NCBI GenBank assembly: GCA_951406725.2
Contig: OX597822.1
Span: 56,482,001-56,546,000 of the forward strand
DNA: 64,000 nt
Source of the DNA: Octopus vulgaris
Lineage: Eukaryota
Reading direction: 5' to 3'
Below the pieces are notes generated by a model. It saw only the letters and a list, made by a program, of their open reading frames with translations. It was not told the origin of the DNA and did not search any database. The position numbers and the translations under genes were made by a program. Within the stretch, counting starts at the first letter, position 1; every line of letters starts with the position of its first letter. This document shows, piece after piece, positions 1 to 61,719 of this stretch.

Positions 1-719
1 CCCTCGGCTACCATCATCACCACATTCACCGCCGCCTCTGCAACTATCACAACTACAGCATACTATTACTATCACCCCTTTACCATCACAAAATGGCTAA
101 ATGTGTGTGTTCGTTCAGTATGTTACTTCAGCATGTTAGTTCAGTAGTCAGTCCCTCTTTCTCTCACATAGCCACTCTTTCTCTCTCTCACTCTCTCATT
201 ATTATTATTACTCCCACAGCCATCATCAACACTACTACTTTTAATAAAAACATCATCAACTCTCCCTATATTTTTTGTCTCCCTTTTTTCTTTCTGACTC
301 TCTTTCTCTGTCAGTTTTCACCACCACCCTCACTGTCTCTATGCCTACTATTACTCTTGCCCCAACATGAGCAATAGTAGGAGTGTTACGGAATAGTAAG
401 AGAAGAGGTCGAAGTGTGACACACTGACACACAGAAATTACTTTTCGCATTTATTATATTAGATATATGTGTGTGCGTGAATGTGTGTGTATATGTCTGT
501 CTGTGTGAGTGTGTGTGTGTGTGTGTGTCTGTGTCTGTGTAAATGGATTTGCTATTTATCAGTCTTTGCTTGTTGGCCAACTATATTATTGTTGTTATTA
601 TTCATTTTACTAATGATAGTAATTAATAATATCTATATAAAAGTTTTCAAATATTTATTCATTCAGTAATTTTATACACTGACACCAGTTTTTTTTTGGC
701 TCTAGCATTTCAACGATTA

Positions 720-2670
720 CCAAAAATAATTCGAATGTAAATAAGCACAATTATTATACACCCACGAAGAATACACTGACAATGAACAAAAATAATAAGA
801 TGAATTATAATAATAGTAATATTAATAATAATAATGATAGCCGTAAGGAAATTATATGGCTAATTATCCCTTATGGGATAAATCGAAACTAACTTGAAGA
901 AATTCTGAACATAATAAAAACAGCCTTTAAAAAGAACAAAACATACACGAAAATATTCTCAAACAAAACTATCAGAGTGGGCTATTCGACAACAAAAAAC
1001 GTTAGTAATATTATATCCTTTATAAACAACGTCAAATTAAATAACTTCTATAATAACAATTTAACTAATATTAACAATAGCTACGGAAGAAAAATAACAA
1101 TAAAAAAACATAACTGTATTTTAAATAAATACACATGTCAAGATAAATCCAAATGTAGCTTTAATAATAATTGCAACCTAGATAATGTAATTTATAAATG
1201 TACTGTAACCTCTAATAATAAGAAGAAAGAATATATAGGATCCACAGCGAATGAAATTAAAAGAAGAATTTTCCAGCATTATCAATCCATTAAAAATCTC
1301 ATAATAAATTCGACAGGCCTAAGTAAATACATATAGGAGTTGATATCTGAAAAATAGAATACACCCTTAATTGGAATATCCTTAGTAGAGCGAAGTCATA
1401 TAGAATAGGTAATAAAATGTGCTTATTATGCACAAATGAAAATACTCCAATCGAGAGAGGTATTACTGAGCAGTTCAGAAGAGAGAGGAACAACATGCCG
1501 ACATAAGAATGTATGTAATTTCCTAAACAATTATGTGGAAGATAGTTACATGTAGTTATAATAGAATTATATAATATAAGGTTGTCCCAAAAGTTCGTAG
1601 AAAGTCTTGGAAAATAATGGTCTTTATTTTGAGGAATAATTTTTGTTGTTTTTGTTAGTACTTGGCGAATAAAAATTCAATTTTCGCAAGTGTTTACGAA
1701 CTTTTGGGACAACCTAATAGTATTAGATACGGATATACCGAGAACCAAGAATATATTTAAAGAATATTACATTAAAAGGAATAGACAGGCCACATTTAAT
1801 ATAACATAATTCTTTAAATCTTTAACACTAGAGAAAAAATCCAGTTATAGCTAAATTTCAGAGTATCTTGATATTATCTCGCCTTGAATTCAATCTCTCA
1901 AATATTATTAGTCTTAGAGAATTTTTCAGAGTAGTATATTTTATTTATGTTATTCCTATAATACTTAGCGACGACAAAGGGAGTAGCCATTTGCACAGGA
2001 ACTAGCAGGAGTAAACGTGTAGATAAGTATTCTTCCTTTGTTAATTTTGTTTACTAGATTCATTTACTAGACTTATTCACTAAATTTATAACGTATATGG
2101 AGGTTTTTACTTTTTAAATATTATTAACTTACGTTTGACATAAAAATGATAATCCATGCTTGTATAGTTAGGGGTAAATCTTACAATAATTATTAATACT
2201 CGTAATGTTCATATAGATAAGCGTTGGAATTTGATGTGTTTATAAAATAGTCGATGAGGGTTTCTTTGTTTAGCAGTTTTTCTTCTCTCTCTCTCTCTCT
2301 CTCTCTCTCTCTCTCTATATATATATATATATATATATATATATATATATATATATATATATATCGAAATAGTATTTTTAGGTGTTTAATTTTATAAATT
2401 TTTATTATTTAAAAATTTTTTTGATTTAAAAAATATTTTGATTTGGTAATTTTTTCAAAATATATTAGTAAGTTATATATATATTTATTATATTTTTATC
2501 CATATTCTTATTTTTCTATTGAATATATCTTAGAATATGTAGTTTTAAGCTTGATTCGTTAATAATAATAACAATAAGAAACTAGCCCCAGAACGCACTG
2601 GTGGATTTATGGATTAGGTATGGCCTGGTTTAACAAACCACCGGCGCAGAAACACGTGTAGTGTTGATTA
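720..2670 (+). mobile_element. Degraded Penelope-like element 3' part (GIY-YIG endonuclease)
   Basis: ORF 977-1336 CNLDNVIYKCTV...YIGSTANEIKRRIFQH...STGLSKYI, followed by out-of-frame WNILSRAKSY...CLLC; decayed hammerhead-like motif near 2585-2665. Mirrored in the right arm at about 57650-59335. Confidence 0.75.
1577..1717. mobile_element. Mariner-type MITE
   Basis: TIRs T(A/T)AGGTTGTCCCAAAAGTTCGTA, flanked by TA; the site is empty in the right arm (about 58970). Confidence 0.8.
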
Positions 2671-3513
2671 CACTTATCTACTTTCCCCACAGGTAGGGTA
2701 TATATATATTTCAAATATTTTAAAATATTTTAAAAAATTTATTTCATTGTACTTTAAAGTAGGCTTTAAAATGCTTATATCATTATAGTTATACTGGATA
2801 TAACTTTCTATGTGTATTCCGAAAATAAGATTGTCCTGAAAAAGGAGTTGTGGTTCTATTGGTAAAATCTCAAATTTATAATAATACATATGTATATATA
2901 TATATATATATATATATATATATATATATATATATATATATATATATGATATAATAAAAAATGGAGTTAACGCAGGTGTAATCAAATATTTTTACTTTCG
3001 ATACATGTTTCGAAAATTCCACTGATACTATTCAAAAGAATAAATGGTATAAACAATGCAATCTTCTCCCCAGGAAAGTGAAAAAAACGAAAATTTTTTA
3101 TTCATATTATTCGACGTAAACACGAAGTTTCTACCTTTATAAACAAGGAGTTACAACACCTTTACTTGTGAGATTTTTGCTGCCCTGGTAACTATTTATT
3201 TATTTTTTCCGTGTTAATTGTTAACAAGGTAAAAATACACTCATCTATTTATATATATATATATATATATATATATATATATATATATATATATATATAT
3301 ATATATATATATAAATGTATGTATATATATATATATATATATATATATATATATATATATATATATATATATATATATATATATATATGTATGTATGTAT
3401 GTATATATATATATGTGTGTGTGCATAGAAAGTGTATGTCTGTGTTGTGTGTACTAATGAATATGACAACGATCAGCAGAGAAAATGAGAGAAGATAATA
3501 TATGGAAACTTAC

Positions 3514-59510: not shown

Positions 59511-59670
59511 ACTATAGACGAGTTAGATCAATACTAAAAACAGAGCTCAATGCTAAAAACAAGATAATAGGTATTAACGTCCCAGTTATAAGTTACAACT
59601 ACAATATCCTTAACTGGACGCTAAATGAACTAACCAAAATAGATAAGAAAACAAGAAAAATAATGACACA
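59511..59670 (+). mobile_element. R4/Dong-like LINE fragment after (AAT)n
   Basis: YYRRVRSILKTELNAKNKIIGIN..VISY..LNWTLNELTKIDKKTRKIMT; homologous to 32930-33090. Confidence 0.7.
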
Positions 59671-61719
59671 CACCGCAGTGCCAGTATTGTTGTGAAAATG
59701 AGATTTGAAAAGTCCTCTAAGAAAACCACCAATCACTGGAAAAATAACAAGCATAACAGAAATCAGACTACGAGCAAAGCAGAAAGCCATAAAATGAGGA
59801 AATAGATATCTCTGGATCAACTGATTTTAAATTTTGAGAGTTTATCTTCCTTAATTCTCATCAGCAGGAATCACTATTTACCTAGGGTTAAAAACTTTGC
59901 TCGATTTATTGTGTTCGCTTACCGTTGAAAAGCTAGAGCTGGATTAGAAAAAGCTGGTGTCAGTGTGTAAAATTACTGAATTAATAGATATTCGAAAATA
60001 TTTATCTAGATATTATTAATTATTATCATTAGTAAAATGAATAATAACAATAATAATATAGGTGGCAAACAAGCAAAAACTAATAAATGGCAAATCCATT
60101 TACACACACATAAATACACACACACACACACACTCACGCGCATACATATATCTAATATGATAAATGCGAAAACTAATTTCTGTGTGTCAGTGTGTCACAC
60201 TTTGACCCCCTCTCTTACTATTCATTGACACTCCTACTATTGCTCATGTTTGGGTGAGAGTAATAGTAGGCATAGAGATGGTGAGAGCGGTGGCAAAAAC
60301 TGACAGAAAGAGAGAGAAAGAAAGATGAGAGACAAAATTATAAGGAGACTTGATGTTTTTAATAAAAGTAGTAGAGTTGATGGTGGCTGTGGGAGTAATA
60401 ATAATAAGAGAGAGAGAGAAAGAGTGGCTATGTGAGAGAAACTGACCACTGAACTAACAGGATGAGTAACATACTGAAGGAATACACACATTTAGTCTTT
60501 TTGTGATGGTAATGGAGTGGGCTGTAGTTGTGATATTGGTAGAGGCGGCAGTGATGGTGGTGGTGGTGGTAGCCGAGGGAATGAGGGATGAAGTGAGAGT
60601 AAGCGATGTGAAAGACTGTTGATGATGAAGGGGAAGGCGGCGAAGTCAAAGGTATTGGCTGTGGTGGCATCAGAAATATGCATGGTGCATGTATGGCAGA
60701 TGTAGTGGTGATGGTGGTGGTGGTGGTAGTATAAGTTCTAAGTCGACAAATTGTATCAATGTTTTGATGAAAATTGTTCACTGTTTGAAAAATATTGTTG
60801 AAGTTTAATAAAATTTAATATATACTCAATGCAAGAAGTGTCATTTTTGCGTCCAAGGCCTAATGAAGCACCCCCACAGGATCTATCTTAAAAGAGAGAT
60901 CTTTTTAAGCCACGATATATATATATATATATATATATATATATATATATATATATATATATATATATATATATATGGTGATTGTCAACTCCTTATGCAG
61001 AATCTGACAACGTTTTCAAAAGACTCCCACATAGATAGCATATCTGATTTGGACCACCAAGAACATCAGTTAAGTTCTGATTTTTGTGGATCTTAGAATG
61101 TCTTTTGAAGCCTCCATTTAATTTGCAGACCTTATTGCATACATACATACATATATATGTATCTAAGCATATATATATATATATATATATATATATATAT
61201 ATATATATATATATATATATATATATATATATATATGAGTGTATGTATATATGTATGTATGTATGTATGTATGTATGTATGTATCTATCTATCTATCTAT
61301 CTATCTATCTATCTATCTATCTATCTATATATATATATATATATATATATATATATATATACACATACAAATGTGTGAATAAATACACTCACACACTACT
61401 ATCACATCATTTTACATTCCTCTTGCTTCTCCTCTCTTTTTACCACACTTTCCTTTTTCTAGATCCCCCACTCTTTGTTCCATACTTTCTCTTTCTTTAC
61501 CTATCTCATTATCCTTGTAGCCTCTGTACATCTACCGCTGTATTATTATATTTTACTTAGCTGCAATCAATACCAATGTTGTATATGTATTTAAGTATGT
61601 ATGTATGTATGTATGTATGTATGTATGTATGTATGTATGTATGTATATATATATATATATGTGTGTGTGTGTGTGTGTGTGTGTGTGTGTGTGTGTGTGT
61701 GTGTGTTACATACATATAA

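What the first reader, a model, noticed from the sequence alone, without database searches (positions are those of the whole stretch)
1..60579. Giant inverted duplication (arms of about 25 kb) holding two head-to-head cholinesterase-like genes
Eight collinear reverse-complement blocks define a palindrome with a spacer of about 10.6 kb (about 25815-36465). It runs off the left edge of the window. Many arm-specific insertions (Penelope 9572-13220, RTE, Tc1, SINEs with clean TSDs, a MITE with an empty mirror site) indicate it is not very recent. Such structures can drive gene-family expansion and arm-to-arm gene conversion.
Basis: seen in the sequence. Interest (0 to 1): 0.7.

Follow-up and report, generated by a model that had tools for sequence, protein, structure and literature searches.

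The report
Old mirrored octopus cholinesterase gene pair
An octopus chromosome holds a real, old mirror-image duplication of about 28 kb with two back-to-back cholinesterase-like genes, two of ten copies in one cluster; part of the pair was likely made alike again by gene conversion, and one copy has lost its predicted membrane anchor, so it would be either secreted or decaying.

Summary
The inverted duplication is real but degenerate. The arms are about 28.3 and 28.5 kb, both running past the window, around a 10,654-base spacer; only about 11.5 kb aligns, at 91% identity. It is not a haplotype mis-join: there is no assembly gap, both arm types occur in 3 of 3 DNA runs, and in the two runs with even depth each arm matches single-copy paralogs. 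It holds two head-to-head cholinesterase-like genes, two of ten copies in a cephalopod-specific cluster that includes the published O. vulgaris AChE and several other inverted duplications. A 2.4-kb tract over the large exon is about 4.6% diverged at silent sites against 7-9% elsewhere (p 0.006), likely old gene conversion. The left gene has a one-base loss, shared with a second organism, that swaps the predicted GPI tail for a short hydrophilic one. The right gene is one base short in an A-run; that may be an assembly error (untested). Both keep the catalytic triad but lack many acetylcholinesterase gorge residues. This is a known kind of structure; the scan noted similar octopus pairs on other DNA. 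Interest 0.35.

The parts
1..25811 (.). Left arm (continues to about -2493, ending in a TAA/TAG microsatellite; 28.3 kb in all)
25812..36465 (.). Spacer, 10,654 bases; at least 4,753 bases hit repeats within the 534 kb examined, 958 are microsatellite; no N gap
36466..64000 (.). Right arm (continues to about 64972, ending in a TAA/TAG microsatellite; 28.5 kb in all)
7502..9011 (-). Left gene, large coding exon (ATG 8982); open frame, Ser-Glu-His triad present, PF00135
3514..3697 (-). Left gene, next exon, 184 bases (185 in the right copy); the one-base loss near 3519-3523 shifts the last exon (starts at -1492) and gives a 571-aa product with a hydrophilic tail
   Evidence: same gapless form in run X5
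47380..48888 (+). Right gene, large coding exon (ATG 47409); one base short in the A-run 48390-48396, so the assembled frame stops at 331 aa before the catalytic Glu and His
57110..57294 (+). Right gene, next exon (185 bases); last exon starts at 64021 and encodes a hydrophobic, predicted GPI-signal tail
7212..9573 (-). Left half of the high-identity tract (75 of 2,359 columns differ), likely old gene conversion
46819..49187 (+). Right half of the high-identity tract
25501..25972 (.). Dispersed MITE-like repeat with imperfect inverted arms; arm homology ends inside it (25811/36466)
9574..13212 (.). Left-only insertion, 3.6 kb, direct and inverted terminal repeats; Penelope-like by recalled features only
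   Evidence: no Pfam hit
4788..6371 (-). Left-only insertion with an RVT_1 fragment
22186..24750 (.). Left-only insertion with a GIY-YIG fragment and a SINE-like repeat
39361..42601 (.). Right-only stretch with a Tc1-like element (inverted repeats 40411-40581 / 41573-41744)
55525..56664 (.). Right-only insertion holding a palindromic element (56105-56431); mirror site empty
61684..63737 (-). Right-only insertion with an RVT_1 fragment

Best explanation
This is a real inverted duplication of about 28 kb that copied one whole cholinesterase-like gene head-to-head inside a ten-gene octopus cluster; it likely predates the split from a sister species, the large exon was likely homogenised later by gene conversion, and the left copy has lost its predicted GPI tail and would be a soluble esterase or a decaying gene. 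Shown: arm and spacer coordinates, divergence, both arm types in three DNA runs, the shared one-base loss, triad present, gorge residues changed. Inferred: (a) origin by a fold-back or template switch, with the inner end in a hairpin-forming MITE and the outer ends in microsatellites (about 0.4); (b) age of very roughly 10-30 My; (c) conversion of the 2.4-kb tract after transposons had already broken up the arms (about 0.65); (d) the right copy is the intact, transcribed, membrane-anchored form and its A-run break is an assembly error or a private allele (about 0.75); (e) both enzymes likely hydrolyse esters other than acetylcholine by preference; (f) the left copy is a soluble monomer (about 0.4) rather than a pseudogene (about 0.6).
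For: Real duplication: no N in 534 kb; different paralogs lie beyond each outer end; silent divergence 7-9% against a species heterozygosity of 1.22% (PMC10700109 passage). Left-type and right-type contigs co-occur in 3 of 3 DNA runs (X1, X3, X5; patterns matched). At 3936-4100, left/right depths are 19.4/18.9 in X1 and 59.8/64.6 in X3; contigs of two single-copy paralogs are 16.8 and 17.6 in X1, 60.7 and 52.1 in X3. Old: the O. sinensis protein P0096 is 99% identical to the right exon and 96% to the left and groups with the right; organism C carries both types. Conversion: tract non-coding 35/754 (4.6%) against 596/6,789 (8.8%), p 4e-5; tract silent 50/1,080 against the seven cleanest blocks 250/3,591 (7.0%), p 0.006; three-way patterns with the +101 kb paralog differ by exon (193:11:21, 25:16:27, 44:7:4), so the cluster is a mosaic. 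Tail loss: 184 against 185 bases, best 15-residue hydropathy 0.21 against 1.83-2.44 in six relatives, and an X5 contig spans the site with 1 difference and no gap. Right copy: right-type contigs in both presumed RNA runs; the X11 contig has the full A-run and runs into the next exon.
Against: Depths are Logan contig means, which the tool says are no copy number; other arm contigs range 13-25 in X1 and 32-74 in X3, and X5 is too uneven to use (32-319). X1 or X3 may be the assembly's own sample. No read or contig across either arm/spacer junction was examined. The conversion signal is a gradient (neighbouring blocks 5.9-6.5%, tract edges 5.5-6.9%, longest identical run only 167 bases), so constraint or noisy flank alignments could explain part of it. 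The classic test fails: the right copy is closer to its O. sinensis ortholog than to the left copy. The right A-run is untested in the window's own lineage, because the X1, X3 and X5 contigs there are left-type. The left one-base loss has only one independent contig; X1 and X3 showed no left-type contig at that site. No left-type contig appeared among the listed pieces of two presumed RNA runs. Purifying selection on the left exon is weak (8 non-synonymous, 7 synonymous, p 0.03; right branch 8 and 3, p 0.45).
Confidence: 0.7

Rival explanations
1. Assembly artefact: the arms are two haplotypes of one locus joined in mirror orientation.
For: Identity is uneven; both copies carry one-base frameshifts; only one protein of this type is listed for O. 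sinensis and one gene for O. bimaculoides; junction reads not examined.
Against: No gap; divergence 7-9% plus about 60% unalignable sequence against 1.22% heterozygosity; both types in 3 of 3 DNA runs under two organism labels; each arm at single-copy depth in X1 and X3.
Confidence: 0.04
2. Real duplication without gene conversion: the tract is alike because of selection on the exon and nearby intron, and flank divergence is inflated by poor alignment near repeats.
For: Gradient rather than sharp edges; clean blocks of 5.9-6.9% exist elsewhere; longest identical run 167 bases; paralogs are not closer than orthologs.
Against: Synonymous sites (15/326) and flanking intron (35/754) are both low, p 0.006 against clean blocks; the upstream intron does not align with the +101 kb paralog although introns near later exons do, so it is not broadly conserved; synonymous sites are not slow between other paralogs (dS 0.30-0.64).
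Confidence: 0.25
3. The left copy is simply a young pseudogene, and the pair shows ordinary birth-and-death evolution with one surviving copy.
For: Frameshift; longer left branches (exon trees); no left-type RNA contig listed in two runs; another cluster copy (-208 kb) is broken.
Against: The esterase domain is open for 494 codons, all splice sites are canonical, the stop lies in the last exon, the triad is intact, and there is a weak deficit of amino-acid changes; the frameshift falls after the catalytic domain.
Confidence: 0.45

Closest known systems
Drosophila Amy-p/Amy-d and Hsp70Aa/Ab, Hsp70Ba/Bb palindromic pairs (review PMC3924832; passages read)
   Same: Linked mirror-oriented paralogs older than a species split, with extra identity centred on the coding region while flanks diverge.
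   Different: There paralogs are closer than orthologs (ongoing conversion). Here the right copy is closer to its O. sinensis ortholog, so any conversion is old; arms are 28 kb with a 10.7-kb spacer and full of transposons.
Cephalopod tandem gene arrays such as protocadherins (PMC9068888; passages read)
   Same: Lineage-specific cluster shaped by duplication and suggested gene conversion.
   Different: That paper's main text has no occurrence of 'cholinesterase' or 'esterase'; this cluster is about 0.5 Mb with ten copies in mixed orientation.
O. vulgaris acetylcholinesterase AHG95983 (P0007; Fossati et al. seen only as a reference entry and as summarised in PMC5430041 passages)
   Same: Same cluster: the copy at +229 kb is 99.8% identical to it; same exon layout and hydrophobic tail.
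   Different: The two genes here are about 61% identical to it and have lost Asp72, Glu199, Phe/Tyr330 and Tyr334, which it keeps.
Torpedo acetylcholinesterase and vertebrate butyrylcholinesterase (PDB hits)
   Same: Same family; triad, Trp84, Trp233, Phe331, Trp432 and Tyr442 kept; acyl pocket Leu/Val as in the bat butyrylcholinesterase P0082.
   Different: Glu199 is His, Asp72 is Gln, Gly119 is Ala; 7 of the 14 gorge aromatics are replaced (the list and roles of these residues are recalled).
Soluble, anchor-less cholinesterases (readthrough AChE-R and snake-venom AChE-S, recalled; secreted nematode AChE, start of abstract PMC4031386)
   Same: Catalytic domain followed by a short hydrophilic tail without anchor or dimerising cysteine.
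   Different: Here the tail comes from a one-base genomic loss in a duplicate, and neither expression nor secretion is shown.

Membership tests
Inverted segmental duplication | Two collinear reverse-complement arms over 1 kb at about 90% identity or more | tested here: met
   11,552 aligned columns, 91.3% identity, arms about 28 kb
Inverted segmental duplication | Each arm at single-copy (not half) depth; both present in unrelated samples | tested here: met
   contig depths only, two usable runs
Inverted segmental duplication | Reads span both arm/spacer junctions | not tested
Concerted evolution of a palindromic pair (Amy/Hsp70 type) | Local excess of silent identity over duplication age | tested here: met
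   4.6% against 7.0-8.8%, p 0.006 to 4e-5; gradient, not sharp
Concerted evolution of a palindromic pair (Amy/Hsp70 type) | Paralogs within a species closer than orthologs between species | tested here: not met
   Right groups with O. sinensis P0096 (99%) rather than left (96%)
Concerted evolution of a palindromic pair (Amy/Hsp70 type) | Shared polymorphisms between paralogs | not testable with these tools
   Contigs merge close variants; no raw reads offered
Carboxylesterase/cholinesterase family (PF00135) | COesterase domain with Ser-Glu-His triad and signal-like N-terminus | tested here: met
   E 1e-135; triad in left, and in right when read through with X; right as assembled stops before Glu and His
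Acetylcholinesterase proper | Choline-binding Trp84 | tested here: met
Acetylcholinesterase proper | Glu199, Asp72, acyl-pocket Phe288/Phe290, peripheral-site aromatics (roles recalled) | tested here: not met
   His, Gln, Leu/Val, Gln/Val/Gln (the Trp279 column is approximate)
Acetylcholinesterase proper | Groups with arthropod and vertebrate cholinesterases rather than a cephalopod-only clade | tested here: inconclusive
   Quick tree of 49 proteins: cluster forms a cephalopod-type clade (SH-aLRT 100) among mollusc sequences; a gene on C3 sits nearer the arthropod/vertebrate group; deep forks 84-94, careful search unfinished
Acetylcholinesterase proper | Prefers acetylcholine, shows substrate inhibition | not testable with these tools
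   Needs an enzyme assay
GPI-anchored (H-type) cholinesterase | C-terminal Cys and hydrophobic signal tail: right copy | tested here: met
   Tail identical in kind to P0096, hydropathy 1.95; no GPI predictor run
GPI-anchored (H-type) cholinesterase | C-terminal Cys and hydrophobic signal tail: left copy | tested here: not met
   Frameshifted tail, hydropathy 0.21, Cys lost
Penelope-like element (9574-13212) | RT plus GIY-YIG ORF and pseudo-LTR ends | tested here: inconclusive
   Terminal direct and inverted repeats present; 0 of 3 ORF pieces hit Pfam

The most novel reading that the evidence does not exclude
Octopods run an undescribed cluster of about ten cholinesterase-derived esterases with individually retuned gorges, built by repeated mirror duplications, and in this pair a single fixed base loss turned one membrane-anchored copy into a secreted enzyme (for example for saliva, blood or sucker chemistry), converging on the soluble cholinesterases of snakes and parasitic nematodes.
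Probability: 0.25. Interest if true: 0.6.

Novelty: new member of a known kind. Interest (0 to 1): 0.35.

Why it matters
The structure itself is an ordinary, well-known kind. The useful points are elsewhere. First, the 'octopus acetylcholinesterase' used in regeneration and cell-type work is one of ten related genes, some 94-97% identical in DNA, so probes, read counts and histochemical activity may mix paralogs. Second, the gorge residues differ between copies, which makes substrate specialisation directly testable. Third, the pair offers a natural comparison of an anchored and an anchor-less copy. Public annotation of the pair is poor (444-aa and 331-aa models).

Tried and rejected
Unmasked self-BLAST was swamped by microsatellites; redone masked. 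Tandem (direct) orientation of the genes: rejected. Mosaics of left and right letters in Logan contigs were not used as evidence of conversion, because assemblers merge close variants. Back-calculating single-copy depth bins was unreliable and dropped. X5 depths were dropped as too uneven. No holder is on record as RNA; X6 and X11 are guesses, and lack of left-type contigs there is no evidence of silence. A search for short proteins bearing the left tail found no candidate, which shows nothing about expression. TSD scan of 16 gaps was mostly uninformative. The spacer shows no end-to-end symmetry, so it does not look like a decayed continuation of the arms. The careful tree did not finish; the quick one is reported. 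No structure was predicted, as the family is clear from sequence. Nine paper searches gave no listing that describes this cluster; two papers were not held; no supplements were read, and gene-family tables there may list the expansion.
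Full report
Setting. The window is G000:C9:56482001-56546000. Its large ORFs match proteins named Octopus vulgaris at 100% and O. sinensis and O. bimaculoides at 89-99%, so the animal is an octopus. I fetched 260 kb to the left and 210 kb to the right and use window coordinates throughout; negative numbers lie left of the window.

Observation. With microsatellites masked, self-BLAST shows a collinear chain of inverted matches. Chaining over the flanks gives 26 blocks from 25811/36466 to -2493/64972: arms of 28,305 and 28,507 bases and a spacer of 10,654. Only 11,552 columns align, 1,000 mismatched (8.7%). For 12 of the 16 blocks over 200 bases, no other match in the 534 kb covers half of the block; the other four hit paralogous exons or a local tandem copy at lower identity. 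Both outer ends fall in TAA/TAG microsatellites. The inner end falls inside a dispersed repeat with imperfect inverted arms; the mirror copy is its best genome match of 40 places scored. The gaps hold arm-specific mobile elements; clean target-site duplications were mostly not found, and the Penelope label rests on terminal repeats and recall.

Real or mis-joined. There is no N in 534 kb, and different paralogs lie beyond each arm. Silent divergence is 7-9%; the species' heterozygosity is given as 1.22% (PMC10700109, passages). Contigs of public runs carry both arm types in 3 of 3 DNA runs laid, from three studies and two organism labels (patterns matched exactly). At 3936-4100 left and right depths are 19.4 and 18.9 in X1, 59.8 and 64.6 in X3. 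Contigs from two single-copy paralogs are 16.8 and 17.6 in X1, 60.7 and 52.1 in X3. Haplotypes would sit at half. Limits: these are contig means, other arm contigs range 13-25 and 32-74, X5 is too uneven to use, one run may be the assembly's source, and junction reads were not examined. I put a mis-join at about 4%.

Genes. Each arm holds a whole three-coding-exon gene, head-to-head. They are two of ten copies of the large exon within about 480 kb; 17 matches were found genome-wide. One copy is 99.8% identical to the published O. vulgaris AChE AHG95983. In a quick tree of 49 proteins the cluster forms a clade with Argonauta and two unnamed proteins, Argonauta having its own expansion; left, right and O. 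sinensis P0096 are sister to O. bimaculoides P0093. Both genes keep Ser, Glu, His and Trp84 but have His for Glu199, Gln for Asp72, Ala for Gly119, Leu/Val in the acyl pocket and no peripheral-site aromatics (residue roles recalled). They likely work as esterases with a preference other than acetylcholine. They are not filed as acetylcholinesterase proper.

Frameshifts. The right gene is one base short in the A-run 48390-48396 and stops at 331 aa. None of 4 runs shows the short run, but three of those contigs are left-type; only X11 is right-type, with a full run and a splice into the next exon. P0096 is also intact, and X11 shares a diagnostic letter with it (47820), so the window's own lineage is untested. 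The left gene's next exon is 184 bases where 8 of the 10 copies are in frame (the other exception is the broken -208 kb copy). That shifts the last exon and gives 571 aa ending in a hydrophilic tail without the cysteine and the hydrophobic signal. An X5 contig spans this site with 1 difference in 265 bases and no gap, so the loss is likely real and shared with organism C. X1 and X3 had no left-type contig there. Right-type contigs appear in both presumed RNA runs; left-type ones were not listed.

Age and conversion. The right copy is 99% identical to P0096 and the left 96%, and X5 matches the corresponding arm within about 0.4-1.6%, so the duplication is older than that split. If organism C is the sister species (2.5 My; O. 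bimaculoides 34 My), 7-9% suggests very roughly 10-30 My (inference). The tract 7212-9573/46819-49187 differs at 35 of 754 non-coding sites and 15 of 326 synonymous sites, against 596 of 6,789 elsewhere or 250 of 3,591 in the seven cleanest blocks (p 4e-5 and 0.006). Against this: the edges are soft, the longest identical run is 167 bases, and paralogs are not closer than orthologs. Three-way site patterns with the +101 kb paralog change from exon to exon, and the left tail residues resemble O. bimaculoides P0093 while the right resembles the +101 kb gene, so exchange among neighbours has likely happened more than once. I put conversion of the tract at about 0.65, old and now ceased.

How it likely arose and works. 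A fold-back or template switch between a hairpin-forming repeat and a microsatellite copied 28 kb in mirror orientation (inferred, about 0.4; recombination between dispersed repeats is the alternative). The same process recurs here: at least four more inverted blocks at 90-96% identity, one starting right at the outer end of the right arm. Transposons then broke up the arms; a patch over the large exon was converted; the right copy likely stayed anchored and transcribed, and the left lost its anchor. Whether the left is a soluble enzyme or a dying gene is open: its domain and splice sites are intact and amino-acid changes are mildly scarce (p 0.03), but no transcript was seen.

Comparison and novelty. 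It works like the Drosophila Amy and Hsp70 mirror pairs (PMC3924832, passages) but fails their test of ongoing concerted evolution. Cephalopod arrays shaped by duplication and conversion are known (PMC9068888, passages). Nine searches listed no paper on this cluster; PMC9068888, PMC10700109 and PMC9635652 have no 'cholinesterase' in the main text; supplements were not read and subscription journals are not held. Octopus AChE is reported in regenerating arms (PMC5430041), as a white-body marker (bioRxiv 2022.06.11.495763) and in salivary glands of Paroctopus (PMC12607849), all passages only, none tied to a paralog. PMC6896357 (passages) treats oyster AChE only. Earlier scan notes describe similar octopus mirror pairs (unchecked). 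Verdict: new member of a known kind; interest 0.35.

Noticed in passing
G000:C9, window coordinates 65056-70594 and 72687-77931 (L011, L012): A second inverted repeat (about 92% identity, spacer about 2 kb) begins directly at the microsatellite that ends the right arm.
   Followed up: partly
G000:C9, window coordinates -206400 to -43900: Three paralogs (-190, -103, -58 kb) lie in nested inverted and direct duplications at 89-96%; their large exons show dN equal to or above dS (0.027-0.047 against 0.031) and differ at gorge positions, a hint of positive selection.
   Followed up: partly
G000:C9, window coordinates -250573, -162903, -128268, -43446: Four copies of the last (tail) exon appear without a matching upstream exon in the same orientation nearby; two lie in a 96% inverted block.
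   Followed up: no
G000:C9, window coordinates -211242 to -207219: Broken paralog: lacks the first 166 codons in the match, has a frameshift and stops, and an out-of-frame next exon.
   Followed up: partly
G000:C9, window coordinates 229362-271551 (L043-L047): The published O. vulgaris AChE lies at the cluster's end and groups with the cephalopod clade, whereas a gene at C3:91994940-91996433 sits nearer arthropod and vertebrate cholinesterases (quick tree).
   Followed up: partly
window 20251-21931: Local tandem duplication of about 840 bases (88% identity) in the left arm only.
   Followed up: no
window 27263-27962: A 700-base near-palindromic element (about 81%) inside the spacer.
   Followed up: no
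window 14972-15145 and 38798-39163: A 69-base GC-rich tandem repeat inside an ORF of 156 codons with no family hit, and a 184-base SINE-like tandem pair.
   Followed up: no
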